Below are positions 9,406 to 38,454 of a stretch of 64,000 bases of DNA, piece after piece. The translations under genes were made by a program, and so were the position numbers. A model generated the notes under the pieces. The model searched no databases. It had not been told where the DNA came from and was given only the letters and a program-made list of their open reading frames with translations. The stretch is from Candidatus Omnitrophota bacterium. Its GTDB lineage: Bacteria > Omnitrophota > Gorgyraeia > B26-G9. The stretch spans positions 34,471 through 98,470 of the forward strand of contig JBDRJV010000013.1 in assembly GCA_043814605.1 (NCBI GenBank), given 5' to 3'. Every line of letters starts with the position of its first letter. Positions within the stretch are counted from its first letter, which is position 1.

Positions 9406-9408
9406 TAC

Positions 9409-10445: not shown

Positions 10446-10449
10446 GTTT

Positions 10450-10815: not shown

Positions 10816-10848
10816 ATTCCGAAAAAACCCCTGATCAAGCTTAATAAA

Positions 10849-11208
10849 TTATAAGTCCAAGTTTCCCCACCATCCATCATAGAACCTTTTCAGGTACTCG
10901 TAAAATTCTTCATCCATTGTATTTCTCTTTACATCTTTTTCTTTAAACGAATATTTATAACCAGCGCAATAGCTCATCAGAACATCATTTGCCTGAGCTA
11001 TTTTTTTAAACATTTCCTCGCATTCTTTTTTCTTCTCACCTCTACATTTGTCAGGATGATATTTAATGGCAAGTGTTCGATACGCATCTTTTATTTTATT
11101 CAAAGTTGCATATTCATCTAAGTCCAATATTTTTCTCGATGCATCAATTTGCATAAAATTTGCCATTTTATTTCCTGATTTTATATTTGCATTGCAAAAT
11201 TGAATCAA
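10849..11208 (-). CDS. DnaJ (J-domain) protein
   Basis: YRTLAIKYHPDK (HPD motif). Confidence 0.8.
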   Translation of the reverse strand: MIQFCNANIKSGNKMANFMQIDASRKILDLDEYATLNKIKDAYRTLAIKYHPDKCRGEKKKECEEMFKKIAQANDVLMSYCAGYKYSFKEKDVKRNTMDEEFYEYLKRFYDGWWGNLDL

Positions 11209-11213
11209 TTATT

Positions 11214-12116: not shown

Positions 12117-12159
12117 TTTTATTTCTCATTATAAAAATTAACATCACTATATGAAAATC

Positions 12160-12768: not shown

Positions 12769-12783
12769 TATGCTATCCTTCCC

Positions 12784-13665: not shown

Positions 13666-14514
13666 TTACTTAGTTCTCAAAATTTTTTGAAACATTGTTA
13701 AAAAACTATTTTTATATTCTGGAAATTTTTCTACTATGGAAATGCCCTGAGAATAGCTTTGAGCAATTTCTTTTTTAAAAGGAATCTGCATCAATACTGG
13801 AATTTTTTCTTTTTCGCAGTATGTTTCTGTTGCCTTATCCCCTAGGTCAGAACGATTGATTAAAACCCCAAATGGTATTTTTAATTTTCTTACAACTTCA
13901 ACTGCTAAAATTAAATCGTTTAAGCCAAAAGGAGTAGGTTCGGTTACCAGTAAACAAAAATCACTCCTTCTTAAAGAAGAAACTACCGGGCATGATGTTC
14001 CCGGGGGGACATCAATAATCACTGTTTTCTCTGGATTAATATATTTTTTAACTTGACGGATTAAAGGCGGAGCCATTGCTTCGCCTACATTAAGTTTTCC
14101 GTGGATAAATTCTATGCCCCGACAAACACCTTTTTCTACAATACCAATTTCCTTATTGACTTCGGTGATTGCTTTTTGAGGGCAAAAAAAACTGCAGGCT
14201 CCGCAACCATGACAGAGATTTGTAAAAACCAGAATACTTCCTTTTCTGTTTTCCTTAGCTGGTAACACAGCGAATGCATTATACGCACATACTTGGCGGC
14301 ACCTGCCGCAGTAAATACATTTTTTTTCATCAATTAGCGGCACTGGAATATATGCTTTTTCCTGCTCTTTTATTTCCGGATTTAAAAAGATATGTGCGTT
14401 AGGCTCTTCTACATCACAATCAAGAAATTGCACATTTTGTATCGACAAAGCTAAATTCACTGCAACTGTAGTTTTTCCGGTTCCGCCTTTGCCACTGGCA
14501 ACAGAAATAATCAT
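13666..14514 (-). CDS. MinD/Mrp/ParA-type ATPase with 4Fe-4S ferredoxin motifs (paralog)
   Basis: GKGGTGKT; CIYCGRCRQVC, CHGCGACSFFCP. Confidence 0.8.
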   Translation of the reverse strand: MIISVASGKGGTGKTTVAVNLALSIQNVQFLDCDVEEPNAHIFLNPEIKEQEKAYIPVPLIDEKKCIYCGRCRQVCAYNAFAVLPAKENRKGSILVFTNLCHGCGACSFFCPQKAITEVNKEIGIVEKGVCRGIEFIHGKLNVGEAMAPPLIRQVKKYINPEKTVIIDVPPGTSCPVVSSLRRSDFCLLVTEPTPFGLNDLILAVEVVRKLKIPFGVLINRSDLGDKATETYCEKEKIPVLMQIPFKKEIAQSYSQGISIVEKFPEYKNSFLTMFQKILRTK

Positions 14515-14525
14515 TTAAATTCCTT

Positions 14526-15131
14526 TTAATGTTTATCCGAAATTATTAAATCCTGATTTTCACCTTTAATTTCTCTTACCCAAAAACCCCTGCGCATTAA
14601 ATAATCCCTTAAATCTTTTAATGTAACAAAACTCTTATTATGATTGCGTCCTTCGGCTTTATGTATCTGGTCTAAAATACTAAATCCATTTTTATTAAAG
14701 TCACTTAAAATAATTTTCCCCCCAGGCAAAACTAAACGTATCATTTCCGCAATTGCTTTGTAAGGATTACTTAAATGGTGAATTGTATTGACCGAAAAAA
14801 TCACATCAAAACTTGAATCATTAAAACCTAAGTTTTCTGCATTAGCAATTTTAAAATTTACTTTTTCTTTAACTTTGAAATATTCTAGATTTAATTTGGC
14901 TAATGCCTGGTCCTCTTTAGATATATCTACACTTGTAAAACTATAGCCCTGTTTTGCTAATGCTAAAGTAAAGTGCCCTTTTCCTGTGCCTATTTCTAAA
15001 ATATTTCCCTTGATCGGTAATGAATTATTTAAAATAAATTCTTTTTCTTTATTTCGGTCTATACCGAATTTTTTAAAAACCTCAATTCTTTCTAAAAATA
15101 TTTGATGATTTTCCAAGACTTTTTTTCGCAT
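14526..15131 (-). CDS. Class I SAM-dependent methyltransferase
   Basis: ILEIGTGKGHFTLALA motif I. Confidence 0.75.
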   Translation of the reverse strand: MRKKVLENHQIFLERIEVFKKFGIDRNKEKEFILNNSLPIKGNILEIGTGKGHFTLALAKQGYSFTSVDISKEDQALAKLNLEYFKVKEKVNFKIANAENLGFNDSSFDVIFSVNTIHHLSNPYKAIAEMIRLVLPGGKIILSDFNKNGFSILDQIHKAEGRNHNKSFVTLKDLRDYLMRRGFWVREIKGENQDLIISDKH

Positions 15132-15135
15132 ATTA

Positions 15136-15372
15136 TTAGCCTCTACTCATGGGGATATTACACTTAGGACAATTCATATGCGTACAGGGCAATCCCGATT
15201 GATGTCCAATTTTCATTCCGCAATTAGCACAAACACAAAATCCTCCCGGGCCTCTACCCTGAATTCCCTTCCTTACAAATCTTCCTTGGCCTGCGCCTAA
15301 ACCTCTTCCTGTTCCAGGGCCTTGTCCCTGAGGGCCTGTTCCATCTCCTCTTGGCATATTGCACCTCCTCAA
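15136..15372 (-). CDS. DUF5320-like small Gly-rich protein with C-terminal Cys/His zinc-ribbon (likely starts at internal Met, MPRGDGTGP)
   Basis: MPRGDGTGPQGQGPGTGRGLG N-terminus; CVCANCG...H...C.H.NCPKC tail. Confidence 0.55.
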   Translation of the reverse strand: MRRCNMPRGDGTGPQGQGPGTGRGLGAGQGRFVRKGIQGRGPGGFCVCANCGMKIGHQSGLPCTHMNCPKCNIPMSRG

Positions 15373-15377
15373 TTATA

Positions 15378-15743
15378 TTAACTCATGCCAAAATGAGACG
15401 TTACGTTAGGTTTATCAATTGTTTTAAACTTATTATTTTTATATTGTTCAATAATTTCTTTTATTTTTCCCGAAGCTCCAGTAATAACTCTTATCCCTCC
15501 AGCTTTTAAAGTGTTAAAAGCATTTGGGCCTACATTCCCGGTAATTACAATTTCTGCTAACTTTTCTGATATTAATTGTCCGGATTGGATTCCTGCCCCG
15601 CCCGAACTATCAATATTAGGATTTTTTATTGCTTCAAATTCCAGAGTATCAGGATTAACAATTATAAAATACTGGCAACGACCAAAATGAGGATCAACCT
15701 GTGATTCTAAATTATCTCCTTGAGACGTAATACATATTTTCAT
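15378..15743 (-). CDS. NifX/NifB-type dinitrogenase FeMo-cofactor domain protein
   Basis: MKICITSQGDNLESQVDPHFGRCQYFIIV typical of Nitro_FeMo-Co family. Confidence 0.8.
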   Translation of the reverse strand: MKICITSQGDNLESQVDPHFGRCQYFIIVNPDTLEFEAIKNPNIDSSGGAGIQSGQLISEKLAEIVITGNVGPNAFNTLKAGGIRVITGASGKIKEIIEQYKNNKFKTIDKPNVTSHFGMS

Positions 15744-15754
15744 TTATTTTCCTC

Positions 15755-16156
15755 CTATTCATGTTCACAATCATCTTCGTGGGGATGATCACAAGCTGTT
15801 TTTTCTACTCCATAACCTTTTCCTGCTCCGGGACTACAAAGGCTTTCTCCTCCTTCAAGCTTTCCATTAATAAAAGCCTCAATCACATTATCAACTTTAC
15901 CGCTAATTCCCATTATGGTTTGGATATTAACTTCGGAAAATAATTCTCTTGCTCTCATTCCCATCCCCCCGGCTACTATTGCCTGCACACCTTTCTCATG
16001 CAAAAAACGCGGTAAAAATCCCGGATGATGTCCCGGATTATTTAAAATTTCTGAGCTTATTATTTTATTCTGCTCTATCTCTACAATTGTAAAAGCTGGA
16101 CAGCGACCAAAATGAGCAGATACTAAATCTCCATCTGTAGAAATTGCAATTTTCAA
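15755..16156 (-). CDS. NifX/NifB-type FeMo-cofactor domain protein with C-terminal CDHPHEDDCEHE tail (TTG start)
   Basis: MKIAISTDGDLVSAHFGRCPAFTIV; His/Cys/acidic C-terminus. Confidence 0.8.
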   Translation of the reverse strand: MKIAISTDGDLVSAHFGRCPAFTIVEIEQNKIISSEILNNPGHHPGFLPRFLHEKGVQAIVAGGMGMRARELFSEVNIQTIMGISGKVDNVIEAFINGKLEGGESLCSPGAGKGYGVEKTACDHPHEDDCEHE

Positions 16157-16204
16157 AATTAACCTCCTTTAATGATCTCGCCTTGGCGGGAGAATTAAAC
16201 CCCG

Positions 16205-16237
16205 AATCGAACTTGTTCTGGTTCGGGGTTAATCCAA
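16205..16237 (-). promoter_or_regulatory. Intercistronic GC stem-loop (aaccccgaa...ttcggggtt)
   Basis: 9-bp perfect stem between DUF5320-like gene and NifX-like gene; no T-run, so probably processing/attenuation rather than terminator. Confidence 0.35.
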
Positions 16238-16246
16238 ATCTCTTCA

Positions 16247-16600
16247 CTATTTAGTTTCTTCCTCTTCTTTTACTGCATTAAGTTCTTTTATCCGCTGATT
16301 TATAGCTTGTATTTCATCTTGCATAAATTTTACCTGTTCTTTTAAAAATTCAGTTTCGGTTCTAGGTGTAATCCCAAAATCATTTACTCCATAAGCATAT
16401 GAAGCCATTCTCCGCCAGCCAAATCCCTGTCCTCTACCATATCCTCTACCAAACCCCCGTCCATAACCAAAACTACCACGTCCAGGCGCTGAATTCATAT
16501 AGCCTGATACAGGATAACCAGCACAATAACCTCTTCCGCCACCTGTAAATGGACCTTGCCCTCTTGGCCCAGTTCCGTCAAAACCTGGCATATCAATCAC
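16247..16600 (-). CDS. DUF5320-like protein (MPGFDGTGPRGQGPFTGGGRGYCAGY...) with C-terminal coiled coil
   Basis: N-terminal motif; Gly/Tyr/Arg-rich middle; EIQAINQRIKELNAVKEEEE. Confidence 0.55.
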   Translation of the reverse strand: MIDMPGFDGTGPRGQGPFTGGGRGYCAGYPVSGYMNSAPGRGSFGYGRGFGRGYGRGQGFGWRRMASYAYGVNDFGITPRTETEFLKEQVKFMQDEIQAINQRIKELNAVKEEEETK

Positions 16601-16624
16601 CTCCTAAATGAGTCCCGCCGTATT

Positions 16625-16662
16625 CTTGCAGAATGCAAGAGTCGGGACGAATTTAGTCTTGC
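16625..16662 (-). promoter_or_regulatory. 5'-UTR hairpin directly upstream of RBS of 16247..16600
   Basis: gtcccg-ccgta-ttcttgca-gaa-tgcaagag-t-cgggac imperfect long hairpin. Confidence 0.35.
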
Positions 16663-16714
16663 CAATGCACACTCCCTTGAATGGACTTGGCAGACAAATA
16701 TTTTAAATCTTTTT

Positions 16715-16741
16715 TATTAATGAAAACCATTTTCATTAATA
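16715..16741. promoter_or_regulatory. Fur-family-box-like perfect palindrome TATTAATGAAAA-cca-TTTTCATTAATA
   Basis: 12-bp inverted repeat, 3-bp spacer, AT-rich (operator-like, not terminator-like), between Fur-family gene and the downstream 14-gene operon. Confidence 0.5.
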
Positions 16742-16753
16742 GGTTAAAAAAAT

Positions 16754-17227
16754 TTAGCTTTTTTTTCTGCATTTATCACATATTCCATAAAATTGAATTA
16801 TGTGACTTGTGATTTCAAAGTTGTATTTATTAGACAATCCCTTCTCAGTTTTTTTCAGTAATTCTATTTCGTCATTTATAAAATCAGTATACTCAATTAT
16901 ACGATTACATTCTTTACATACCAGATGATGGTGATGATGACTTTTCTTTGATCCCTCAACAAGTTCATACCTTGATCTTCCGTCTCCAAAATCAAACTTA
17001 AAAACAAGACTCATGTTAACCAGTATTTCTAGTGTCCTATAAACAGTTGTCAGTCCAACCGCCGGGTAAATTGGATGAATTTTATTATAAATATCTTCTG
17101 CGCTGAGATGTTTATCTGCGATCATTAACGCATCTAAGATAGCCTCTCTGCCTGCTGTAATTCGATAACCGCAGCCTCTGAATCTCCCATGCCACCACAT
17201 TGGGCCTGTTCCATCTCGTCTTGGCAT
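16754..17227 (-). CDS. Fur-family metalloregulator with N-terminal MPRRDGTGP (DUF5320-like) extension
   Basis: ILDALMIADKHLSAEDIYNKI...VGLTTVYRTLEIL wHTH; HHHHH; CKECNRII...CDKCR. Confidence 0.8.
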   Translation of the reverse strand: MPRRDGTGPMWWHGRFRGCGYRITAGREAILDALMIADKHLSAEDIYNKIHPIYPAVGLTTVYRTLEILVNMSLVFKFDFGDGRSRYELVEGSKKSHHHHHLVCKECNRIIEYTDFINDEIELLKKTEKGLSNKYNFEITSHIIQFYGICDKCRKKS

Positions 17228-17393: not shown

Positions 17394-19229
17394 TTATTTT
17401 GATTGCGCACTACGGATAATCCGCTTACGATTTATTTCTGTTAAATGCCATTTCCGAAGCCTGATATGCTTAGGAGTTATCTCCACTAATTCATCATCCT
17501 CGATAAACTCAAGCGCAAACTCCAGGGTCATTTGCCGCGGAGGGATAAGTACAATCGCCTCATCACTTCCGGATGCGCGCATATTCGTTAATTTTTTCCC
17601 CCGTAAAGCATTTACAACCAGATCTGTCCCTTTGTTGTTCACGCCAATGATCATACCCTCATATAATTTTTCTCCTGGTTTAACAAAAATCTCACCCCGT
17701 GCCTGTAAATTATAAAGCGCATAGGCCACTGTATCTCCGCTTCCCTGGGAAATAAGTACGCCGTTTTGCCGTGTCGGCAGAATTCCTTTATAAGTTTGGT
17801 ATTCAAGAAAATTCTGGTACATAATACCACTGCCTCGGGTCATCATCAAGAATTCGCTGCGAAAACCAATTAATGCCCTTGAAGCAATCACAAATTCCAT
17901 GCGAATAGTACCTAAAGATGTTTCTTTTATAACGCGCATTTGAGCCTTGCGAACTCCCAGCGCTTCCATAACAACACCCTGGTACTCATTTTCCACCTCG
18001 ATAATCACCTCTTCAACAGGTTCAAGTGTTTGCTCTCCCATTTTCTTTAAAATAACCTGCGGCCTGGATACTTCCATCTCATACCCTTCACGCCGCATTG
18101 TTTCAATAAGAATAGCCAGATGCAGTTCTCCGCGGCCGGAAACTTTTAACCGCTCAGTTCCTTCAACTGCCTCAACTTTAATACCCACATTGATCATTGC
18201 CTCATGCTCAAGGCGCTCCCGCAAATGTCGTGAAGTTAAAAATCTGCCTCCATCCTTACCGGAAAGAGGGCTTGTATTATGAGAAAAATTCATCGAAATC
18301 GTCGGCTCATCTATTTTAATCGCTGGCAATCCTTTTGGCTCATCAACACATGCAAGTGTCTCACCCACCTCTACGTCTTCTATCCCGGATATTAATATAA
18401 TATCTCCGGCGATTGCTTCATTAACTTCAACTCGGACTAGGCCGCGATACTTCATAATCTTAGTTGCCTTACCTCTGACAATCGTTCCATCCCGTTTAAC
18501 AAGCGCTACAGGATCTCCCACATGCACAGTTCCGTGGAAAACTCTGCCTATCGCAATTCGCCCCACATAAGAATCATAATCAAGCATTGTCACCAGCATT
18601 TGAAAAGGTAAATCAGGGTTAGCTATCGGCGGCAATACTCTATGTAAAATAGTTTCTAAAAGCGGTTTCATTGATTCTTTGGGTTCATCAAGATCAAGAG
18701 TTGCATATCCATCTTTTCCTGATGCATAAACAATCGGAAAATCGAGCTGTTCGTCAGTTGCATTCAGATCACAGAAAAGATCAAATGTCATATCCGCCAC
18801 TTCATCCGGCCGGGAATGGGTACGATCAAGCTTATTGATTACAAGTATGGGTTTTAAATGTAATTCCAGTGACTTTTTCAAAACAAATTTAGTCTGCGGC
18901 ATGGGCCCTTCAAAAGCATCAACAAGCAGAAGCACTCCATCAACCATCTTCAAGATTCGTTCAACCTCACTGCCAAAATCAGCATGACCCGGCGTATCAA
19001 CAATATTGAACTGTACTCCTTTATATTGCAAAGAAGCGTTTTTAGACAGAATAGTTATCCCGCGTTCTTTTTCCAAAGGATTTGAGTCCATTATCGCAGT
19101 TTCGCCTTTTTTAAAATCATAAGCGCCGGTATATTTAAGCAAGGCATCGACAAGCGTAGTTTTCCCATGGTCAACATGCGCGATAATTGCAATGTTCCTT
19201 ACATCTTTTCTTCTTTTTTGATTTAGCAT
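17394..19229 (-). CDS. typA: Translational GTPase TypA/BipA
   Basis: IAIIAHVDHGKTTLVDALL, DTPGHADF, NKLD; EF-G-like domain order; 611 aa. Confidence 0.9.
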   Translation of the reverse strand: MLNQKRRKDVRNIAIIAHVDHGKTTLVDALLKYTGAYDFKKGETAIMDSNPLEKERGITILSKNASLQYKGVQFNIVDTPGHADFGSEVERILKMVDGVLLLVDAFEGPMPQTKFVLKKSLELHLKPILVINKLDRTHSRPDEVADMTFDLFCDLNATDEQLDFPIVYASGKDGYATLDLDEPKESMKPLLETILHRVLPPIANPDLPFQMLVTMLDYDSYVGRIAIGRVFHGTVHVGDPVALVKRDGTIVRGKATKIMKYRGLVRVEVNEAIAGDIILISGIEDVEVGETLACVDEPKGLPAIKIDEPTISMNFSHNTSPLSGKDGGRFLTSRHLRERLEHEAMINVGIKVEAVEGTERLKVSGRGELHLAILIETMRREGYEMEVSRPQVILKKMGEQTLEPVEEVIIEVENEYQGVVMEALGVRKAQMRVIKETSLGTIRMEFVIASRALIGFRSEFLMMTRGSGIMYQNFLEYQTYKGILPTRQNGVLISQGSGDTVAYALYNLQARGEIFVKPGEKLYEGMIIGVNNKGTDLVVNALRGKKLTNMRASGSDEAIVLIPPRQMTLEFALEFIEDDELVEITPKHIRLRKWHLTEINRKRIIRSAQSK

Positions 19230-20999: not shown

Positions 21000-21713
21000 T
21001 TAACTTGCCCGTCCTAACGTCTTGAACCAGATTCTATTCTTTCCCGTCATCTTAGCTTTATACATCGCCTGATCTGCTTCTTTTACAAATTCTTCAATTG
21101 TCTGCCCTGTTTGATATTCGGCAATGCCAATACTAACTGTTTTGTGCACATAGTATTCTGGGTTTACTTTAGCTTGCGGATAGAATTTCATTGTTTCGAT
21201 TTGTTTACGGATCCTTTCCGCTGGCGTTATAGCAAAATGTACAGCTGTCTCAAGTAATAATATGGTAAATTCTTCTCCGCCGATTCTAAAAGCGTAATCA
21301 GTTTTTCTTAAGTTGCTGGTAAAAATATCTGCCAGTTTTATAAGCACTATATCTCCAGCTCCATGCCCATATTTGTCGTTATAATTCTTAAAATTATCTA
21401 CATCAATATACAAAAGCGACATTGAACGTTCATACCTCTGGCATCGGGGGCATTCCATATTAAGATATTCATAAAAAACGCGGCGGTTATATAATTGGGT
21501 GAGAACATCTGTTCTGCTTAATTTTTCTAATTCTACATTTTTTCTTTCTAATTCCTTATACAGTAATTTAATCCCTTCATTTGTTTTCTTTGTTGCCCAC
21601 ATTTGATCATTAAGTTCCTGCTGGAGCTCATTTATTTGCTGCTGAAGAATTCTATTTTGTCCCATAAGATCAATTTGTTTTTCTTGATCTTTATTGTTTC
21701 CACCTCCAGCCAT
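21000..21713 (-). CDS. GGDEF diguanylate cyclase with N-terminal coiled coil
   Basis: RRVF, DVDNFKNYNDKYGH, RIGGEEFTIL. Confidence 0.8.
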   Translation of the reverse strand: MAGGGNNKDQEKQIDLMGQNRILQQQINELQQELNDQMWATKKTNEGIKLLYKELERKNVELEKLSRTDVLTQLYNRRVFYEYLNMECPRCQRYERSMSLLYIDVDNFKNYNDKYGHGAGDIVLIKLADIFTSNLRKTDYAFRIGGEEFTILLLETAVHFAITPAERIRKQIETMKFYPQAKVNPEYYVHKTVSIGIAEYQTGQTIEEFVKEADQAMYKAKMTGKNRIWFKTLGRAS

Positions 21714-21737
21714 TATATAGATCTCCCTTTTAAAATT

Positions 21738-22097
21738 CTATCCAATAAGCTTTTTTACCGCAAGTACAATCTCTGAACAATCGCTAGTTTTTGCGCAATA
21801 ATCATCTGCTCCGGCTTTTCTTGCCTGTAAAGCATCAAAGGCATCTATTGACCCTGTCATCATAATAACTTTTGGTATTGTTTCTTGTTGCCAGGATTTA
21901 ATTAAACTACAAACTCCAAAACCGTCAATCCCTGGTAATATTGTATCTAAAATAACTACGATCGGTGCTTCAGCCTTAGCTTTTTCTAACGCCTCTTCTC
22001 CTGTTGCCGCAGTTAAAACATCATATTCTTTTTCAAAATTATCTTCTAATATTCTCAAGATTGTGGGGCTATCTTCAACAATAAGAATTTTTTTCAT
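21738..22097 (-). CDS. Response-regulator receiver domain protein (CheY-like)
   Basis: ILIVEDSPTILRIL...ILDTILPGIDGF...K. Confidence 0.85.
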   Translation of the reverse strand: MKKILIVEDSPTILRILEDNFEKEYDVLTAATGEEALEKAKAEAPIVVILDTILPGIDGFGVCSLIKSWQQETIPKVIMMTGSIDAFDALQARKAGADDYCAKTSDCSEIVLAVKKLIG

Positions 22098-22398
22098 ATT
22101 TACCTTTTTCCTATATAAAATGGGTTAGCGCAGCAGGCCTTTGTGCTTATTATTTAAATGATACTATCTAGGTTAGAGTTAGTCAATACTAAATAGCTGC
22201 CTTTCTTCTATTTGTTGCAGTCATGTTTTGCCACAACACCTGGCAAAACAGATGTCCCTTAATAATTGCTGTCCGGACTTCTGCCTAACTTATCCCGTAA
22301 AAGGCGGGAAAAAACCGCGGGACAGGTCATCAACCACATAAGAATCCTCATAACTTTTACTGTGTAGGCTCTTTTGTTTACCCGCTAGTTTTTTTTAA

Positions 22399-23158: not shown

Positions 23159-24430
23159 TTAGGATTTACTGGGTTTTACTGGTTGAGGGATTATATTCCC
23201 AATGAAAAATTCATCCACTAGATGCCCGAATTTTAGATAAATTTTATCGTTATTTATTTTTAGAATTGTATATTCATTAACTGTTTGTCCGGGGCGATAA
23301 GGCTTACCAGAAATCATCACAAAAGGATCTTCCTGATCGTACATGATACCTTCAATTTTTTCTTGATGAGTAAATGTCAGCAAAGCTGATGATTTATAAT
23401 CTAAAGGGTTTTTTAGCACTTCGTAATAAAACCGTAATCTGGGATATACCGGATTATTTTTATCGCAATATTTTAAAGCCTTTCGTAAAGGCTCTTTTGC
23501 TTGGCTGTACTCACGAATATTCATATAAGCAATCCCTATGTTGACATGGGCTCCCCAGTGTTTTCTTTCAAGTTCTAATGCTTTTTTTGCATAAGCAATT
23601 GATTCTCGAAAATCTCGCACGTCTTTATTACTAACATACACGGGGATACCTTTTTCCATATAACATTCACTCAAGAAGTAATACAAATCCGCCTGCAGCT
23701 TTTTAGTTGGTTCTCGTTCAAGAAGGGATTGAAATACCATAATTGCCTGATCATATCTGCCAATATTATAATATTTTTCTCCCCTATTCACCAAAGCCAT
23801 CTCCTCAGCTGATGTAAAATAGTTTTTAGTATCGTCGCTGTTTTCCTCCTGTGAAAGCCTCTTAACTTCTTCTAAATTAATACTATCTAAAAAAGCATTC
23901 ACCCCTCCATCCCCTTGGAGCTTGGCAAAACTTTCTTTTGTCCCCGCAACATAACATTCAATTAATCGAGGGCTTTTATCTTCCTTGGCCACATATTGTC
24001 TGATTTTAAGGGAAACTTTTTTCCCCTGATAAGAGATGCTATCTTCAGTTTCTAATAGATGCCAATTAAACATTTTTGTCGAGAACGTCATTATCTTTTT
24101 TGTTTCGTATCTCTGCTTCTGTTTAGCCTTTTGTTTATCCCTAAGCCAGGCCATAGCACTTTTTCTCGGAACATAGAGGGTTCTTAAATATATCTCAAAC
24201 AATCCCCCCTGATTTTGAAAACGAAAAGCATAATCATAGGTATAATCATCCTGACTTTCAATCCTTTCCCAATGTACCGGCTTTTTAAAAGTCAGCTTTT
24301 TAAGTGAGGTTATGTCGTACTGTACTGCACAGGAAATCAGGCTGCCAGTAAAAATAATAATTACAAATATGAATAATATTCTTTTCATTGATTTATCCTT
24401 AAAAGAAATTCTTAAAAAAAATTGTAGCAT
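23159..24430 (-). CDS. TPR-repeat protein with N-terminal signal/anchor
   Basis: TPR-like repeats (YNIGRYDQAIMVFQSLLE, ..NIGIAYMNIREYSQAKEPLRKAL). Confidence 0.6.
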   Translation of the reverse strand: MLQFFLRISFKDKSMKRILFIFVIIIFTGSLISCAVQYDITSLKKLTFKKPVHWERIESQDDYTYDYAFRFQNQGGLFEIYLRTLYVPRKSAMAWLRDKQKAKQKQRYETKKIMTFSTKMFNWHLLETEDSISYQGKKVSLKIRQYVAKEDKSPRLIECYVAGTKESFAKLQGDGGVNAFLDSINLEEVKRLSQEENSDDTKNYFTSAEEMALVNRGEKYYNIGRYDQAIMVFQSLLEREPTKKLQADLYYFLSECYMEKGIPVYVSNKDVRDFRESIAYAKKALELERKHWGAHVNIGIAYMNIREYSQAKEPLRKALKYCDKNNPVYPRLRFYYEVLKNPLDYKSSALLTFTHQEKIEGIMYDQEDPFVMISGKPYRPGQTVNEYTILKINNDKIYLKFGHLVDEFFIGNIIPQPVKPSKS

Positions 24431-24491
24431 CTAAGAGCTCTTCTTGTCAATAAAACAAAAGAGTAGGTAGGGAAAATATACAAAGAACTAA

Positions 24492-24701
24492 CTATGTTGC
24501 GCTTGAAATAGCATTGTATTTACATGCTGTTATACAGGCACCGCAATCAATACATTTGTCTGAATAAAAAACCACGGTATTCTTTCTTTCTAAAGCACCA
24601 GCTGGACAGACCTCAACACATCCCTCGCATGTTCCGCTACAACTACAAGTAGTACATTTGCCATCTTTAAAACAACATTTGTCATAGTCAATAACAATCA
24701 T
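24492..24701 (-). CDS. 4Fe-4S ferredoxin
   Basis: CTTCSCSGTCEGCVEVCP and CIDCGACITAC. Confidence 0.8.
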   Translation of the reverse strand: MIVIDYDKCCFKDGKCTTCSCSGTCEGCVEVCPAGALERKNTVVFYSDKCIDCGACITACKYNAISSAT

Positions 24702-24993
24702 TTTAACGTTCCTCTTTACTATATATTATTGCATTCCAAAATAAAACCAGCTATAAGTATTTACTATTTTATCAACATATCCTCATTTTATTGTAGCTAT
24801 TCATCACAGTCAATATAATCTTCTTTTCTTTTTTCTTTTACTATGCTGCTTTATTGTACTGTTTCAGGGAGTTCTACTACGGGAAAATACATAAAAAAAG
24901 CATGGTAACTTTTTATTTAAAAAGCCCAACATCTAAAGACGCTGGGCTTTTTAAAAACTTTCGGAAGATACTTATATCATAAAAATTCTAAAA

Positions 24994-27186
<2,193 letters not shown>

Positions 27187-27196
27187 TTACCCCCAT

Positions 27197-27889
27197 TTAT
27201 TTTAATTTAAGCGGTTTAAAACAAATAAACCAATCCAGGCATTTTATACCTTCTTTTTTTGCGCCATCAACGCGCTCTTTGGCCGAACCGCAGCTCCCCG
27301 GAGGAGGCACAATAACATCATCGCCTGGCTGCCAATCTGCCGGAGTCGCGACATTGTACTTTTCTGCTGTTTGCATCGCAATCAACATGCGCTTGATCTC
27401 CTGAAAATTACGCCCGGTTGATGATGGATAATACATTAATGCACGCACTTTTGCTTGAGGATCAATAAGAAATACCGCTCTTACCGCACTCGAAATACTT
27501 GCCTGCGGCTACACCATACCAAACTTTTTTGCGACATCCATAGTTAAATCGGCAATCACAGGAAAATTGACTTCAATGTTTTTCATTCCTTTATATTCAA
27601 TTTTTTCCTTTATGGTTCTTAGCCAGGCAATATGGCTGTAATGGCTATCGATTGATAGCCCGATAAGTTTACAATTTAATGCTTCAAATTCTTTCTCCAT
27701 CGAAGCAAAGGTCATAAACTCAGTTGTGCAAACAGGCGTAAAATCCGCCGGATGGCTGAAAAGTATTACCCATTTTCCTTTATAATCTTCCGGAAACTTG
27801 ATATGGCCTTGTGTTGTATCTGCCTCAAAAGCAGGGGCAAGCTCACCAATAACCGGCATGTGTGTTCTCTCGCAGCAATTTTGTTCCAT
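27197..27889 (-). pseudogene. Peroxiredoxin (Prx6/1-Cys-like AhpC/TSA) interrupted by in-frame TAG at 27509..27511
   Basis: N-part has FTPVCTTEF; C-part RAVFLIDPQAKVRALMYYPSSTGRNFQEI...ATPADWQPGD; the two ORFs are in the same frame separated only by TAG. Confidence 0.6.
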
Positions 27890-27909
27890 AACTTTCTCCT
27901 TCCTTATTA

Positions 27910-28215
27910 TTATTTTTTCATTTTGGCTATTTCTTCTTCAACTTCTCCGGCGCCTTCATCATAGAACTTCTGCTCATCCGGAGCTAATTCTTTCAATAGT
28001 CTTAAAAATTCTCCGGCATGCACTCTCTCCTCATCTGCAATATCTTGTAATACTTCCTGCGCAAGTTTATTATCAGTTGATTCTGCCAGCTGCATATAAA
28101 GCTGAATCGCTTCATATTCTGCGGCAACCATAAAGCGGATCGCGCGAACCAACTCTGTTTTGCTGATTTTTTTCTCTTTTGCTATCCCTGAAAAAGGTGA
28201 TCCAAATTCCGGCAT
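27910..28215 (-). CDS. Small ferritin-like/rubrerythrin-family diiron protein
   Basis: EYEAIQLY...DEERVHAGEF (E..H motifs). Confidence 0.5.
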   Translation of the reverse strand: MPEFGSPFSGIAKEKKISKTELVRAIRFMVAAEYEAIQLYMQLAESTDNKLAQEVLQDIADEERVHAGEFLRLLKELAPDEQKFYDEGAGEVEEEIAKMKK

Positions 28216-28335
28216 AATTGCCTCCTTTCTTTAAATAAGCGCATGACTTACGGAGCGTTTTAGGATACGTCAAGTCAACCTGCGCGAATTTAGTCCGAAA
28301 TGGCTGCGGCTTAGCAGACATTTTCGTAATCATTA

Positions 28336-28764
28336 TTACCTGCATTTTTCACAGATAAATTCTAATATTACTCGTTTATGCAGTACGTTATATTTCTTTT
28401 CGATACTGCGGGGGATTTTTAAATCATCAAATTCTTTATTATCAAAATCAATAATTTTGCCACATTTTATACAACTTAGATGATGATGATTTTCTATAAA
28501 AGGATCAAATCTTTTTTGTCGGTTATAGCTTTCAGCTATTTTAATAATACCGATATCCGCATAAGACAATAAAGTTCTGTTGACAGTATCAAATGAAATA
28601 TTAGGAAAATTTATTTTTATCTTTTTATAAACATCATCAGCAGAAGGATGCGTTAGATCATCTTTTAATGCTTCATATATCGCTATCCTCTGAGGAGTAA
28701 TGCGTAAATTATTTTCCTTACACCTTAGCTTAAAAACATCAATAGAATTATTTTGCTTATTCAT
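28336..28764 (-). CDS. Fur-family regulator, PerR-like by context (ORF track start 28800 is a TTG inside the -35; ATG at 28764 preferred)
   Basis: QRIAIYEAL...HHHLSCIKCGKI...CEKC; sits upstream of rbr-like/prx/katG. Confidence 0.8.
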   Translation of the reverse strand: MNKQNNSIDVFKLRCKENNLRITPQRIAIYEALKDDLTHPSADDVYKKIKINFPNISFDTVNRTLLSYADIGIIKIAESYNRQKRFDPFIENHHHLSCIKCGKIIDFDNKEFDDLKIPRSIEKKYNVLHKRVILEFICEKCR

Positions 28765-28768
28765 ATTT

Positions 28769-28784
28769 ATTACTATATAGTAAT
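28769..28784. promoter_or_regulatory. Perfect 16-bp palindrome ATTACTATATAGTAAT overlapping -10 of the PerR-like gene promoter (TTGACA-N17-TATAGT)
   Basis: Seen directly; PerR/Fur boxes are AT-rich 7-1-7 palindromes. Confidence 0.5.
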
Positions 28785-28925
28785 TATTCCTATTTGTCAA
28801 GTTGTTTTTACAAATAAAAAACCGTCCGGGTCTCCTCCCTGACGGTCTTAAGTCCTAATTAAATTCTACTCTTCAAAAAGTAACAGGTCAAGAAAAATGA
28901 ATTACCCCCCCCTCCTTTCATAATA

Positions 28926-34128: not shown

Positions 34129-36999
34129 CTAACTCTGCTTATGCATGTCTATACCTTGCATAAGTTCATACGCTATATTTCCACTCACCAAACGCATAAT
34201 ACTTTCTTCCGAACTGCCAAAACTTAGTAAATTAATACTGCCATACCAAACAATCTTTTGATCTATAACCGCAAATTTCTGATGTATCTTCGGCCGGAAC
34301 ATGATAGTAATCCCGACAGCTTGAAGTACTTTGCATGCCTGTTGTGACGCTAATCTATTGTCTTCTTTTAACTCCTCGGCTGGTCTCGTTATTATTGTAA
34401 TTCCAACCTGTCTGGTTAAGGGATCAGAGAGATTTTGCATAATTTGATTAACCCGTCGCTGAGTAATAAAAGGACTCACAATTACAATTTCTTTTTTTGC
34501 ACTTATTAAGTCATTGCAATAAACAGGGAAAAATGAGCTCTTATCAAAAATAATATCAGTAGTTTGCCCAATACTTTCCCCTTGAGACTTATACCCGATA
34601 GCAGCATAACCAGTTAATCTTTTAGCATACATTTTCTCAAGCATTCTAACTCTGACATCAACATAATCGTAAATTTGAACATGTTTTTTAGTCTCATATA
34701 TTCTATGCAGTCTTCCCGCGTATTGATGCAAAGTTCCTTTCCATGAAATAGGCATAGCAAGAAACAATGTATCCAATCGAGGAGCATCAAACCCTTCTCC
34801 AATAAACGTACCTGTTGCAACTATGGTTAACTGCTTTTCCTGAGACATTGCGGCTATCCGCCTCAATAAGTCATTTGTTTCTTTAGCCCCTAAGCCCCCT
34901 CTCAATACGACAACATCAGGAATTTTCATTGCCAATTTTTTTGCCAGCAGTTCCACATGTGCTGTCCGTCCTGTAAGTACCACGCAATTCCGGCCATTTT
35001 CATAACTATTAATCACATCATCAACAATCAATTGATTGCGCATTTCATCAACTGTCATCTCAGCGTATAATTCTTGAATAGATACTGTTGTATCATCAGA
35101 GGCCGCGATCCTGAAACCGGTGAATCGTGGGATAACGTAATGCTCGAAAGGCCTTTGTTCCGCTTGTTTTTTTGCGTCAACTTTATAACGGATCGGCCCG
35201 CAATGCATAAATAGTATAGGCTGGTGACCATCCTGTCTTGTAGGAGTTGCCGTTAAGCCATACACATATTTAGCGTTCACCTTTTTAAGTATCTGCTCAA
35301 AACTGAATGCCGGAATATGATGGCACTCATCAACAATGACCATTCCGTAGTTTTTGACAGTTTCCTTTACCTCTCCAGCATCATTTAGTGACTGCATTAT
35401 GGCAATATCAATAATACCCGACAGAGCATCTCTTCCTCCGCCCAATTGGCCAATAACACTTTGTTTTTTCTTTCTCCCTCTCTTTTTTTCTGGAACAGGT
35501 AATTTTTCATCAATGATTAAGAACTCCAGCAACCGGACAATCCATTGTAATAATAACTGATGGCGATGAACTAAAATAAGCGTGTTTACTTTTCGCTCGG
35601 CAATCAGCTTAGCGGCAATAACTGTTTTACCAAACGCTGTCGTTGCGGAAAGAATCCCGTTATTGAATTTCAGGAGCTCATCAACTGCTTGCTGTTGCTC
35701 TTCCTTTAAGACTCCTTTGAATTTAACCTTAATATCCTTTCCGCGATTAGTCTGATCATCCCAACACATTTCCACAGCATACTCATTAAGTAAAACATTA
35801 ATATCCTCCTCGCAACCTCTCGGCAAACACAAATAATTATTCTTATCTTCAAAACATGAGATTACTCGCGGTTTATTATAGGTAGGCATTCTCATTGCTT
35901 GAGCTTTGTAAAATTCCGGATTTCTAAAAGCAGATAACCTTTTCAAAGCATTTAAGGCGCGCGAAGAAAATCCCTCTTTATTAATATACAGCATGTCTGC
36001 TTTTACAATAACCGTCTGCTTAGGATGGCCTGCTTTGGTCAATCTGATCCTGTTTTTCAACCACGGCTTTTCTTCATCTTCAGCTTCTCTAAGCACGCCC
36101 AATTCATTACCCGCGCAAAGTTTACTTATGAATGATTCTACGGTATCTCCTGAGAGCTTCTTTATCAAGGACAAAAATCCCCATTGATCTTCATAGGGGT
36201 TAAATTTCTCATCAATAAAAATACTGTGACCGGCTTTCCTGGCATCCAGTTGAAGTGGAAGTGCGATTAAATTTCCCATACCGCCTTTCGGCATTGTATC
36301 TTGATTTGGGAAAAACCTGTCATATGATGCAAAGGCTATTTCATGGCGTTTATTCATCGCATAGGTGATCACTGCGCTGCCAAATTTTCTGGCCAGTGCT
36401 GCAGGCAGGCACTCTTCAAAAAGAAACCACACATGCGCGCCATTTCCTGATCGTGAACGTTCTACCGCCATGGGAATATTGAATTCTCGACAAACTTCTC
36501 TTACTACCGAAACATCCTTCTCCCATCCGGTATCATCAAAATCAATCACCAGAAAATAACAATTTTCATCTGGAAGCAGCGGATAAATGCCGATAACCAG
36601 ACCGCCTCGCAAATGATTTTCAATGGCCTGCGCATCTAATTGTGCGTACAATTTATATTCACAATCTGCACACCTGGTCTTTGGTTTACCACATATTACT
36701 CTTTGCCATTCATTCAAACAGACCGGAGAATATCCTGACCTTCCCGCTTTATTCTGCCAGCGCTTAGCATATACATCATCACGGCCTCTAAATAAACTGC
36801 GAAATAACTGTATTTTTTCATTATTTGATAGCTGTTGAGAAATCAAAGGATTTTTTACAATAGTTGGCGAAGTAGGGGGCAGGCTTGATAGCTTTTTAAT
36901 AAGCTTATGTTTCTTTTCTTTTAACGATGAAATCTGAGTATCAATATCATTTATTTCATTTACAATATTCTTCTTGATATCGTCATAACTATAATTCAT
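34129..36999 (-). CDS. Three-domain fusion: N-terminal AEP primase-polymerase (PrimPol)-like domain + SF2 helicase (ResIII/DEAH) + C-terminal PLD-family nuclease
   Basis: AEP motif I LVIDFDD, motif II SGNGAHVWFLF, Zn-finger C..C...C..C; helicase Walker A ATTAFGKTV and VIVDECHH; PLD HxK motif KIHQKFAVID..GSINL. Confidence 0.65.
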   Translation of the reverse strand: MNYSYDDIKKNIVNEINDIDTQISSLKEKKHKLIKKLSSLPPTSPTIVKNPLISQQLSNNEKIQLFRSLFRGRDDVYAKRWQNKAGRSGYSPVCLNEWQRVICGKPKTRCADCEYKLYAQLDAQAIENHLRGGLVIGIYPLLPDENCYFLVIDFDDTGWEKDVSVVREVCREFNIPMAVERSRSGNGAHVWFLFEECLPAALARKFGSAVITYAMNKRHEIAFASYDRFFPNQDTMPKGGMGNLIALPLQLDARKAGHSIFIDEKFNPYEDQWGFLSLIKKLSGDTVESFISKLCAGNELGVLREAEDEEKPWLKNRIRLTKAGHPKQTVIVKADMLYINKEGFSSRALNALKRLSAFRNPEFYKAQAMRMPTYNKPRVISCFEDKNNYLCLPRGCEEDINVLLNEYAVEMCWDDQTNRGKDIKVKFKGVLKEEQQQAVDELLKFNNGILSATTAFGKTVIAAKLIAERKVNTLILVHRHQLLLQWIVRLLEFLIIDEKLPVPEKKRGRKKKQSVIGQLGGGRDALSGIIDIAIMQSLNDAGEVKETVKNYGMVIVDECHHIPAFSFEQILKKVNAKYVYGLTATPTRQDGHQPILFMHCGPIRYKVDAKKQAEQRPFEHYVIPRFTGFRIAASDDTTVSIQELYAEMTVDEMRNQLIVDDVINSYENGRNCVVLTGRTAHVELLAKKLAMKIPDVVVLRGGLGAKETNDLLRRIAAMSQEKQLTIVATGTFIGEGFDAPRLDTLFLAMPISWKGTLHQYAGRLHRIYETKKHVQIYDYVDVRVRMLEKMYAKRLTGYAAIGYKSQGESIGQTTDIIFDKSSFFPVYCNDLISAKKEIVIVSPFITQRRVNQIMQNLSDPLTRQVGITIITRPAEELKEDNRLASQQACKVLQAVGITIMFRPKIHQKFAVIDQKIVWYGSINLLSFGSSEESIMRLVSGNIAYELMQGIDMHKQS

Positions 37000-37008
37000 A
37001 ATTTAAAG

Positions 37009-38454
37009 TTAAAGGACTTCCCAATACCCGCCTTTTGCCGGGCCGATGCGCTTTAATAATTTTGCCTTCTTTAGTTTGGCAATAGCATTTTCTACTGTCC
37101 TTTGGGATAAGTTGGTTGCACCAGCTATTTCATGTGTTTTGATGAAATAGTTTTTCTGAATACATCGCAAAACTTTCTCCGCATTTTCTCCGCATTTTCT
37201 CCGTATTTCCACCGTAATTTTTAACTCTTTTCCCGCAACCTTTTTAACAGGCTTATCTTGTGGTTTATCTTTTTTCTCCAAATAAAATGTTATCTTATAA
37301 TAGTCAAAATCTCCTTCGACTTTAGGTTTTCCTTCATAATAAGCAGCCCAGCCCTTAAACATCTTATGAAAGCCTGAGCCGATATTCTCGGAAAGTTTTA
37401 TTGTCCTAAAAATCCTTGCGATGGTATTGTTTCTCGGCATGGAGAATTCTTCTTTTAAGATATACTTTATGTCCTTAGGTAATGAGCCCGGATTGAAAAA
37501 CTCTATCCTGTTGGAAAGAATTCTTATTCTCGGTTTGGCATTTGAAAAATAATCAGTGTGCATAAGAAGATTAACAAGAGCTTCGCGGATAGCTATAAAC
37601 TGCGGCGGATTCTCATCCCGAGACATTCCTTTAAGCTTAAATGGAATATTAATATGTTTTTTTAATTTTTCAAGAATTGAAAAATAATACTCATACAAAT
37701 TCTTTTGAACAGGCATACGATATTCATATCGGTTATCCGCATCAGAAAAAGAAGTGCCCGACACCTCAAGATATTCCACCCTGAAATCTGAAGCTGCCGC
37801 ATTTACGATTTCTTCTGTGCCAAAAACAAGCGCTCCTCCCACAGTTACTTTGCCCTTTATAATGATCCTCATAAGCTCAAGCATTTTCTCTGCCGAAACA
37901 TCATTATATCGGTGCTCGGGGTCAACCGATTCCAAATATGTCCTGTATCGGGAAATAGTTTCTTTATCAAGATCTTTAAATCTATACCCGGTAAGTTCTT
38001 CATCTTTTTTATCAAAAGAAGAATTCCTGTATAATGCATCTATCTCTTCTTTCGTTGCCCGCTGATCGCCGCTGCCTGTACGAACAAACGTGTTTGCAAG
38101 AGAGTTGAAATAAATTGGCTTGTCTTTGGAATACACAGAAGGAATACGAAAAGCCAATATTGTATTCCCTGCAATTGAATATTTCTTGGACTCAACTGTT
38201 ATTTTTTTATTAAATTTATCGCCTCTTAACGTGGTAAGAAAATCCTGCTCTATTTTTTCCGGATTATTAACTCCAACAACAGAATATTCCTTGCCTTTCT
38301 TTGCTATGCCAAAAATCAGCCAGCCTCCGGCTGTATTGCAAAAAGCGCTTACTGTTTCCCATGCGTTTTTAGGAATAGCAGATTTGGCCTCCTTTACCTC
38401 AAAGTCCTGCCATTCAATATCCTGCAACCTCTTAATCAATTCCTGTTTTTTCAT
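37009..38454 (-). CDS. Schlafen/AlbA_2 (divergent AAA-4) DNA-binding domain + HATPase_c_4-like + C-terminal wHTH transcriptional regulator
   Basis: FEVKEAKSAIPKN...NTAGGWLIFGI; C-terminal RTVENAIAKLKKAKLLKRIGPAKGGYWEV. Confidence 0.6.
   Translation of the reverse strand: MKKQELIKRLQDIEWQDFEVKEAKSAIPKNAWETVSAFCNTAGGWLIFGIAKKGKEYSVVGVNNPEKIEQDFLTTLRGDKFNKKITVESKKYSIAGNTILAFRIPSVYSKDKPIYFNSLANTFVRTGSGDQRATKEEIDALYRNSSFDKKDEELTGYRFKDLDKETISRYRTYLESVDPEHRYNDVSAEKMLELMRIIIKGKVTVGGALVFGTEEIVNAAASDFRVEYLEVSGTSFSDADNRYEYRMPVQKNLYEYYFSILEKLKKHINIPFKLKGMSRDENPPQFIAIREALVNLLMHTDYFSNAKPRIRILSNRIEFFNPGSLPKDIKYILKEEFSMPRNNTIARIFRTIKLSENIGSGFHKMFKGWAAYYEGKPKVEGDFDYYKITFYLEKKDKPQDKPVKKVAGKELKITVEIRRKCGENAEKVLRCIQKNYFIKTHEIAGATNLSQRTVENAIAKLKKAKLLKRIGPAKGGYWEVL

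What the first reader, a model, noticed from the sequence alone, without database searches (positions are those of the whole stretch)
27197..27889. In-frame TAG inside a conserved peroxiredoxin in the PerR regulon
The two ORFs 27509..27889 and 27197..27448 are one Prx6-like peroxiredoxin (FTPVCTTEF ... RAVFLIDP ... YPSSTGRNF ... ATPADWQPGD) in a single frame. It is interrupted only by TAG at 27509..27511, at a position that is normally Asp/His/Tyr (GM[LIV]-D/H-P). It sits in an operon with a ferritin-like protein and katG under a PerR-like regulator. It may be a recent nonsense mutation (pseudogene), a sequencing or assembly error, or programmed stop-codon readthrough.
Basis: seen in the sequence. 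Interest (0 to 1): 0.5.

Follow-up and report, generated by a model that had tools for sequence, protein, structure and literature searches.

The report
Amber nonsense mutation in a peroxiredoxin gene
A peroxide-detoxifying enzyme gene in an uncultured Omnitrophota bacterium is cut short by one C-to-T change that turns a conserved glutamine codon into a stop codon. This is an ordinary, recently broken gene, not a sign of an unusual genetic code.

Summary
On the minus strand, 27889..27197 is one 230-codon frame for a Prx6-type peroxiredoxin (Pfam AhpC-TSA + 1-cysPrx_C; NCBIfam PRK13189). Its only interruption is TAG at 27511..27509, codon 127.

The residue call was wrong. In 161 non-redundant homologous loci this codon is CAG or CAA (Gln) in all but four (His x3, Met x1), and never TAG. 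The lesion is therefore a single CAG>TAG transition.

TAG is a normal terminator here. It ends about 17 of 78 ORFs in the window, at least 8 of them with complete C-terminal domain matches. No other gene is split. The window holds no pyl genes and no suppressor tRNA, and there is no RNA structure downstream of the TAG.

An ENA assembly contig is 100% identical over 5,115 bp, TAG included. The neighbouring KatG and ferritin-like proteins have consecutive NCBI accessions, so no protein was issued for this gene.

The truncated 126-aa product keeps the peroxidatic Cys54 but loses the catalytic Arg137 and the C-terminal domain. The downstream half shows no decay, so the mutation is recent.

Verdict: an ordinary nascent pseudogene or loss-of-function allele. 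A consensus error cannot be fully excluded without reads. Low interest.

The parts
27197..27889 (-). Complete 230-codon peroxiredoxin reading frame (Prx6/1-Cys-type fold with C-terminal Cys residues), interrupted once: a pseudogene or loss-of-function allele.
   Evidence: translation; Pfam AhpC-TSA 14-150, 1-cysPrx_C 171-205; NCBIfam PRK13189, 331.9 bits; more than 100 full-length 230-aa homologues at 77-91% identity.
27509..27511 (-). In-frame amber codon TAG at codon 127. It replaces the conserved Gln (CAG/CAA) of homologues. The sequence context is GGTATGGTG-TAG-CCGCAG.
   Evidence: alignment A1 (Q127 nearly invariant); codon tallies (CAG 114, CAA 45, CAC 3, ATG 1, with TAG only in the window and its identical ENA contig).
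27512..27889 (-). N-terminal 126-codon ORF, the only part expected to be translated. It contains the PxxxTxxC motif with the peroxidatic Cys54 (TGC, 27728..27730).
   Evidence: The exact 126-aa product was called on ENA contig ERZ928008 k127_260301.
27197..27508 (-). Untranslated remainder (codons 128-230 plus TAA). It encodes the catalytic Arg137 (VRAVF, 27479..27481) and the 1-cysPrx_C domain with Cys200/217/223. The sequence is still intact, and no Shine-Dalgarno sequence precedes the internal GTG/ATG.
   Evidence: dN/dS of this half is 0.03-0.07 and is no higher than the upstream dN.
27910..28215 (-). Upstream 101-aa ferritin-like gene (Rubrerythrin/EncFtn-like; passes NCBIfam EncB_fam). 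Intact.
   Evidence: NCBI MFH1459427.1 'ferritin family protein'.
28336..28764 (-). Fur-family, PerR-like regulator (142 aa from ATG 28764). First gene of the cluster.
   Evidence: Pfam FUR; the best NCBIfam hit is PerR at 103 bits, below its 180-bit cut-off. The 142-aa gene call is on the ENA contig.
28769..28784 (.). 16-bp perfect palindrome ATTACTATATAGTAAT overlapping the -10 of a TTGACA-17-TATAGT promoter-like site upstream of the regulator. Candidate Fur/PerR-type operator (inference).
   Evidence: Sequence; promoter-like site 28800..28772.
24994..27183 (-). katG (catalase-peroxidase HPI), intact. It starts 13 nt after the peroxiredoxin TAA and has its own GGGGG Shine-Dalgarno sequence.
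   Evidence: TIGR00198, 1227.7 bits, profile 8-714/716. NCBI MFH1459426.1.

Best explanation
A real, recent amber nonsense mutation. One C>T transition changed the conserved Gln127 codon CAG to TAG in the peroxiredoxin gene of an uncultured Candidatus Omnitrophota bacterium.

Translation terminates at codon 127 by the normal release-factor route. The 126-residue fragment keeps the peroxidatic Cys54. It lacks the catalytic Arg137, the last strands of the thioredoxin fold and the whole C-terminal domain, so it should be inactive. That last step is inferred from the established peroxiredoxin active site (Pro/Thr/Cys/Arg).

The gene is therefore a nascent pseudogene or loss-of-function allele. It sits inside an otherwise intact perR / ferritin-like / prx / katG cluster. 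KatG and the other members can still remove peroxide.
For: Shown:
- The frame is single, and the Pfam domain match runs across the stop.
- Gln is nearly invariant at this column. In 161 non-redundant homologous loci from bacteria and archaea the codon is CAG or CAA in all but four cases (3 CAC, 1 ATG), and never TAG.
- The closest relatives have a sense codon here: L086 (93% aa identity, CAA), L088 (92%, CAG) and L085 (92%, CAA).
- TAG terminates about 17 of 78 selected ORFs in the window. Complete C-terminal profile coverage before a TAG is seen in HlyIII, DUF169, DUF5320, REC, DnaX and others.
- The only other in-frame TAG junction (REC/GGDEF, 21738) separates two genes. The second has its own AAGGGAG Shine-Dalgarno sequence and ATG.
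- The window contains no pyl genes or methylamine methyltransferases. Its only tRNA is an Asn(GUU) gene.
- The RNA downstream of the TAG folds no better than shuffled sequence (z = -0.55).
- An independently produced ENA assembly contig is 100% identical over 5,115 bp, TAG included.
- KatG and the ferritin-like protein carry consecutive NCBI accessions, MFH1459426.1 and MFH1459427.1. The depositor's annotation therefore issued no protein for this gene.
- Nonsense-bearing copies occur sporadically in other assemblies, at different codons: L085 has TAA at codon 157 and L106 has TAG at codon 66, which is 2 of 161.

Inferred: the mutation is recent. The half downstream of the stop has no further lesions, and its dN (0.043 vs L085) and dN/dS (0.03-0.07) are as low as upstream.
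Against: No reads could be inspected, so a consensus or library error, or a mixed population, is not excluded. The two assemblies may derive from the same reads.

Only 64 kb of the genome is visible. A suppressor tRNA or pyl genes elsewhere cannot be ruled out.

The intact downstream half would also fit continued selection on a read-through product. The nearest relatives are too diverged (dS saturated) to separate 'very recent' from 'still selected'.
Confidence: 0.8

Rival explanations
1. Sequencing, consensus or assembly artefact. The organism really has CAG (Gln), and the T comes from a low-coverage consensus, a deaminated-cytosine library artefact or a minor variant picked by the assembler.
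For: C>T is the commonest damage and error class (general knowledge). The gene is otherwise perfect, with no relaxed constraint downstream. No other contig of this species exists in the searched collections to confirm the base independently. Other low-coverage metagenome contigs also show sporadic stops or frameshifts in this gene.
Against: Two separately produced assemblies, an NCBI MAG contig of 111,642 bp and an ENA MEGAHIT contig, agree at 5,115 of 5,115 positions. The site is not in a homopolymer. No other gene in 64 kb is disrupted, which argues against a generally error-rich assembly. A random consensus error is a priori much rarer than a real loss-of-function allele (inference).
Confidence: 0.12
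2. The TAG is real but decoded, so full-length enzyme is still made. Possible routes are near-cognate tRNA-Gln(CUG) misreading, a supE-like tRNA-Gln(CUA) suppressor, pyrrolysine, or a suppressor tRNA from a TAG-recoded phage. Gln insertion would restore the wild-type sequence exactly.
For: The ancestral residue is Gln. From my own knowledge, not tested here: Gln is the residue suppressor-free E. coli inserts at UAG at low frequency (Nilsson and Ryden-Aulin 2003), and a C after the stop (UAG-C) is a comparatively weak termination context in E. coli (Poole et al. 1995). The downstream half is fully conserved.
Against: TAG at this site is not conserved in any of 161 homologous loci. TAG is a frequent genuine terminator in the same window. 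The window has no pyl genes and no CUA-anticodon tRNA. There is no stimulatory RNA structure. Basal near-cognate readthrough is typically well below a few percent (general knowledge), which makes the allele a leaky null rather than a programmed event. The literature search found no report of stop-codon reassignment in Omnitrophota.
Confidence: 0.05
3. Genome-wide reassignment of TAG to a sense codon (Gln, as in genetic code 15 or TAG-recoded phages) in this lineage.
For: Only that TAG aligns with Gln at this one site.
Against: About 22% of ORFs in the window end in TAG, many with complete C-terminal domain coverage. Across about 78 ORFs there is exactly one in-frame TAG inside a conserved gene. 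A recoded genome would show many.
Confidence: 0.01

Closest known systems
Prx6-subfamily peroxiredoxins of anaerobes, thermophilic bacteria and archaea (NCBIfam PRK13189). Closest solved structure: PDB 5ovq (from memory, Aquifex aeolicus AhpC2). Next: archaeal enzymes 3w6g, 2cv4 and 1x0r (from memory, Pyrococcus horikoshii and Aeropyrum pernix thiol peroxidases).
   Same: Same two-domain architecture (AhpC-TSA + 1-cysPrx_C). Same PxxxTxxC motif with a peroxidatic Cys. The conserved Arg in VRAxF is present, as are C-terminal Cys residues. E-value to 5ovq is 2.5e-71 across residues 9-226. The protein is 77-93% identical to hundreds of Omnitrophota and other MAG proteins.
   Different: The reading frame is broken at codon 127, so the gene cannot give the full enzyme by standard decoding. 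The residue at that column is Gln in this clade and His in 5ovq.
Ordinary bacterial pseudogene with an 'internal stop' (single nonsense substitution), as flagged by genome annotation pipelines.
   Same: A single premature stop in an otherwise intact, highly conserved gene. No protein accession lies between the two neighbours. Similar sporadic cases occur at other codons in other assemblies (L085, L106).
   Different: Nothing substantive. It is simply very young, with no secondary lesions.
Pyrrolysine (UAG) decoding in methylamine methyltransferase genes, and selenocysteine peroxiredoxin PrxU (UGA at the catalytic Cys).
   Same: All involve an in-frame stop codon inside an enzyme gene.
   Different: In those systems the stop codon is conserved among orthologues and sits at a functionally special residue. 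Here the TAG is unique to one genome, replaces an ordinary Gln, and the catalytic Cys is a normal TGC. The PrxU model scores only 114.5 bits against a 270-bit cut-off. No pyl genes are in the window.

Membership tests
Prx6-type peroxiredoxin (NCBIfam PRK13189; Pfam AhpC-TSA + 1-cysPrx_C) | AhpC/TSA thioredoxin-fold domain followed by the 1-Cys Prx C-terminal domain, scoring above curated cut-offs | tested here: met
   AhpC-TSA 114.1 bits (cut-off 26) and 1-cysPrx_C 47.5 bits (cut-off 21.1). PRK13189 331.9 bits (cut-off 211). These scores come from the conceptual read-through translation.
Prx6-type peroxiredoxin (NCBIfam PRK13189; Pfam AhpC-TSA + 1-cysPrx_C) | Active-site residues: PxxxTxxC peroxidatic Cys and the conserved Arg | tested here: met
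   P47-T51-C54 (HPADFTPVC) and R137 (VRAVF) are invariant columns in alignment A1. R137 lies downstream of the stop.
Prx6-type peroxiredoxin (NCBIfam PRK13189; Pfam AhpC-TSA + 1-cysPrx_C) | Uninterrupted ORF able to produce the full-length enzyme | tested here: not met
   TAG at codon 127. By descent this is a member of the family but, as encoded, not a functional member.
Pyrrolysine-encoding gene | In-frame UAG conserved at the same position among orthologues | tested here: not met
   0 of 161 homologous loci have TAG at codon 127. They have CAG, CAA, CAC or ATG.
Pyrrolysine-encoding gene | pylT/pylS/pylBCD present in the genome | not testable with these tools
   None among about 55 Pfam-scanned ORFs of the 64-kb window and no tRNA(CUA). 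The rest of the MAG could not be retrieved.
Genome-wide TAG-to-sense recoding (code 15-like) | TAG rare or absent as terminator and frequent inside conserved genes | tested here: not met
   TAG ends about 17 of 78 ORFs. At least 8 of these have complete C-terminal domain coverage. Only one conserved gene has an internal TAG.
Selenoprotein peroxiredoxin (PrxU) | In-frame UGA at the peroxidatic Cys position | tested here: not met
   The stop is TAG, at codon 127. The peroxidatic residue is TGC Cys54. PrxU model: 114.5 bits against a 270-bit cut-off.
Programmed stop-codon readthrough | Stimulatory downstream RNA structure or conserved context | tested here: not met
   The 131 nt around and downstream of the TAG fold at -28.3 kcal/mol against a shuffle mean of -26.6 (z = -0.55). 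The site is not conserved.
PerR-controlled peroxide-stress operon | Fur-family regulator classifiable as PerR, with an operator at the promoter | tested here: inconclusive
   Pfam FUR 91 bits. The best NCBIfam model is PerR, but at 103 bits against a 180-bit cut-off. A 16-bp perfect palindrome overlaps the -10 of the regulator's promoter-like site. Binding was not tested.

The most novel reading that the evidence does not exclude
The amber allele is maintained and functionally leaky. UAG-C at codon 127 would be read at a useful rate as Gln, by near-cognate tRNA-Gln, an unseen supE-like suppressor, or a suppressor tRNA brought in by a TAG-recoded phage. That would regenerate the exact wild-type peroxiredoxin and make enzyme level depend on translational fidelity or infection state.
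Probability: 0.04. Interest if true: 0.5.

Novelty: already known. Interest (0 to 1): 0.08.

Why it matters
It matters little beyond annotation. This MAG has probably lost one of its peroxide-scavenging enzymes, while katG, the ferritin-like gene and the regulator remain intact. The gene should be labelled a pseudogene (internal stop, Gln127>amber), not split into two ORFs.

The useful negative result is that there is no evidence for pyrrolysine, TAG recoding or programmed readthrough in this Omnitrophota genome. If the premature stop is real, it could also lower katG expression through transcriptional polarity. That is an inference and was not tested.

Tried and rejected
- **Pyrrolysine or suppressor tRNA.** ARAGORN found no tRNA in the window. 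The one tRNA found by hand, split by a group I intron, splices to Asn(GUU), not CUA. No pyl or methylamine-methyltransferase domains appear in about 55 ORFs.
- **Genome-wide TAG recoding.** Rejected from stop-codon usage and complete domain ends before TAG.
- **A second in-frame TAG junction (REC*GGDEF, 21000..22124) as another read-through gene.** Rejected. The GGDEF gene has its own Shine-Dalgarno sequence and ATG 24 nt after the TAG, and the REC domain is complete.
- **Selenoprotein Prx.** Rejected: wrong codon and wrong site.
- **Readthrough-stimulating RNA structure.** None.
- **Same-species contigs with either allele.** Exact-protein look-ups of the N-half and the ferritin-like neighbour returned only one ENA contig, identical to the window. 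A DNA pattern scan of JGI metagenomes with N at the mutated base returned nothing. The species is not among the GTDB representatives scanned. The NCBI contig itself could not be fetched.
- **Split, independently translated halves.** Rejected: there is no Shine-Dalgarno sequence before the internal GTG/ATG, and the break lies inside the thioredoxin fold.
- **Relaxed selection downstream of the stop.** Not detectable. Synonymous sites are saturated against all available relatives, so the test has little power.
- **Literature.** Searches on the project accession PRJEB10519 and on Omnitrophota stop-codon recoding gave nothing relevant.

Full report
**Observation.** On the minus strand, 27889..27197 translates as one frame of 230 codons with a single internal stop, TAG at 27511..27509 (codon 127). 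It ends with TAA at 27199..27197. With X at the stop, the conceptual product matches Pfam AhpC-TSA over residues 14-150, straight across the stop, and 1-cysPrx_C over 171-205. It passes the NCBIfam equivalog PRK13189 'peroxiredoxin' at 331.9 bits against a cut-off of 211. The closest solved structure is 5ovq, with E = 2.5e-71 over residues 9-226.

**Source of the window.** The TypA encoded at 17394..19229 is 100% identical to NCBI MFH1459418.1, 'MAG: Candidatus Omnitrophota bacterium', on a contig of 111,642 bp. The KatG and ferritin-like proteins flanking the peroxiredoxin are MFH1459426.1 and MFH1459427.1. These numbers are consecutive, so the depositor's annotation issued no protein for the gene between them. 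That is what happens when a gene is flagged as a pseudogene or left unannotated (inference). A separately produced ENA assembly contig (ERZ928008, run ERR2191545, k127_260301, 5,115 bp) is 100% identical to window 23783..28897, TAG included. On that contig the gene caller produced the same 126-aa and 79-aa pieces.

**What normally sits at codon 127.** The full-length query found more than 100 intact proteins of about 230 aa at 77-91% identity, mostly from Omnitrophota and also from Auribacterota, Sedimentisphaerales, Elusimicrobiota and others. In the alignment Gln127 is nearly invariant (A1). I then fetched DNA for 80 loci from species-representative genomes and 80 from metagenomes, and read the codon aligned to position 127.
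- Genome set: CAG 55, CAA 27, CAC 1.
- Metagenome set: CAG 59, CAA 18, CAC 2, ATG 1.
- TAG appears only in the window's own ENA contig.
- Closest relatives: L086 (93% aa identity) has CAA, L088 (92%) has CAG and L085 (92%) has CAA.

His occurs in distant relatives such as 5ovq, which reads GMIHP. The lesion is therefore a single C>T transition, CAG>TAG.

**Is TAG a stop in this organism?** Yes, as far as 64 kb can show.
- In a greedy non-overlapping set of 78 ORFs, about 17 end in TAG.
- Several of these show complete profile coverage up to their C-terminus just before the TAG: HlyIII 4-223/224, DUF169 7-203/209, DUF5320 1-99/99, the REC domain 1-110/111, the DnaX C-terminal domain, and the PLD domain of the TOTE-type protein.
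- The only other place where two sizeable ORFs abut in frame across a TAG is 21738. There a complete response-regulator receiver is followed 24 nt later by a GGDEF gene with its own AAGGGAG Shine-Dalgarno sequence and ATG. These are two ordinary genes.
- No other gene in the window is split.
- No pyl biosynthesis gene, pyrrolysyl-tRNA synthetase or methylamine methyltransferase domain turned up in about 55 scanned ORFs.
- ARAGORN finds no tRNA. The one tRNA I found by eye, interrupted by a group I intron, splices to Asn(GUU).
- The 131 nt around and downstream of the TAG fold no better than shuffled sequence (z = -0.55).

**Is the TAG conserved, or part of a pattern?** No. Among 161 non-redundant homologous loci only two carry any in-frame stop, and both are at different codons. 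L085 has TAA at codon 157 (TCA>TAA) and L106 has TAG at codon 66 (AAG>TAG). A few short database entries (P0123, P0132) are frameshifted at the A-run GCAAAAAAG just upstream. Broken copies of this abundant gene thus occur sporadically, at about 1% in public assemblies, without a shared site. That is the signature of accidents, whether biological or technical, not of recoding.

**Age and consequence.** Against the three nearest DNA sequences, synonymous sites are saturated (dS > 1.4) while dN is 0.04-0.11. The half downstream of the stop has dN/dS of 0.03-0.07 and a dN against L085 (0.043) no higher than the upstream half (0.050). There is no second lesion, so the stop arose very recently relative to these divergences. 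The test cannot separate 'very recent' from 'still under selection' because no closer relative exists in the searched collections. The 126-aa product retains Pro47/Thr51/Cys54. It lacks Arg137, an invariant column in A1, and the C-terminal domain. By the established peroxiredoxin mechanism, in which the Arg activates the peroxidatic thiolate, it should be inactive (inference). No Shine-Dalgarno sequence precedes the internal GTG/ATG, so the C-terminal piece is unlikely to be made.

**Context.** perR-like regulator (28336..28764), ferritin-like gene (27910..28215), peroxiredoxin and katG (24994..27183) are co-directional, with gaps of 120, 20 and 13 nt. Upstream of the regulator, a TTGACA-17-TATAGT promoter-like site overlaps a 16-bp perfect palindrome, ATTACTATATAGTAAT (28784..28769). 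This is plausibly the regulator's operator. The regulator's best NCBIfam model is PerR but it scores below the cut-off, so 'PerR regulon' is reasonable but unproven. Relatives keep only part of this arrangement: perR-prx in L003 and L088, prx-ferritin in L085.

**Verdict.**
- Real amber nonsense mutation giving a nascent pseudogene or loss-of-function allele: probability about 0.8.
- Consensus or read-level artefact: about 0.12. The two assemblies agree, the site is not a homopolymer, and the rest of the window is clean. Reads were not available.
- Decoded TAG (near-cognate Gln, a suppressor, or Pyl): about 0.05. Gln insertion would neatly restore the wild type, but nothing positive supports it.
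- Genome-wide recoding: about 0.01.

This is an ordinary finding, and interest is low.

Noticed in passing
window 50600..51247 (minus strand): A tRNA gene is split by a 572-nt group I intron (Rfam RF00028, 72.3 bits, core at 50649..50926). The intron carries a 105-aa HNH-like ORF (50875..51192). ARAGORN misses the gene. Joining 51247..51213 to 50640..50600 gives a 76-nt tRNA-Asn(GUU). This is the only junction with U before the 5' splice site, G at the intron end and a 7-nt anticodon loop. A literature search returned no bacterial tRNA-Asn group I intron.
   Followed up: partly
window 40313..40544 and 50315..50553: A direct repeat of about 240 bp (96-99% identical, copies about 10.0 kb apart). 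The right copy lies immediately 3' of the intron-containing tRNA. The repeats bracket a block of defence/toxin-antitoxin genes: MNT/HEPN pair (40625..41657), Schlafen-group-3 helicase with S24 peptidase (45601..48009), MazG-like (48006..48353) and AbiEii/AbiEi (48433..50089). It looks like a tRNA-adjacent island with att-like repeats, but no integrase was seen.
   Followed up: partly
window 34129..38454 (minus strand): Further conflict-system genes lie just upstream of that island. One is a 956-aa protein with a TOTE-type archaeo-eukaryotic primase domain (336 bits), a ResIII/DEAD helicase and a PLD nuclease domain. The other is a Schlafen AlbA_2 / HATPase_c_4 protein.
   Followed up: no
window 27910..28215 (minus strand): The 101-aa 'ferritin-like' gene of the peroxide cluster passes the NCBIfam EncB_fam model (encapsulin ferritin-like cargo, 95 bits against a cut-off of 90). 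No encapsulin shell gene is adjacent in the window.
   Followed up: no
L085 (JGI Ga0272441_10188372) 56..763; L106: Independent nonsense codons occur in the same peroxiredoxin in other metagenome contigs. L085 has TAA at codon 157 (TCA>TAA) in one of the three closest relatives. L106 has TAG at codon 66 (AAG>TAG). Entries P0123 and P0132 are frameshifted at the A-run GCAAAAAAG just before codon 127.
   Followed up: yes
window 28769..28784: A 16-bp perfect palindrome, ATTACTATATAGTAAT, overlaps the -10 of a near-consensus promoter-like site (TTGACA-17-TATAGT) directly upstream of the Fur-family regulator. It is a candidate autoregulatory operator.
   Followed up: no
window 8692..17227 (minus strand): A long co-directional cluster of Fe-S and metallocluster-related genes. 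It contains a second Fur-family regulator (16754..17227), DUF5320, two Nitro_FeMo-Co (NifX/NifB-like) proteins, two MinD/ParA-type ATPases with 4Fe-4S ferredoxin inserts, DUF169, an ARMT1-like phosphatase, a DnaJ-domain protein and NifU_N. Several neighbours share one frame and are separated only by a TAA, but each has its own start codon.
   Followed up: no
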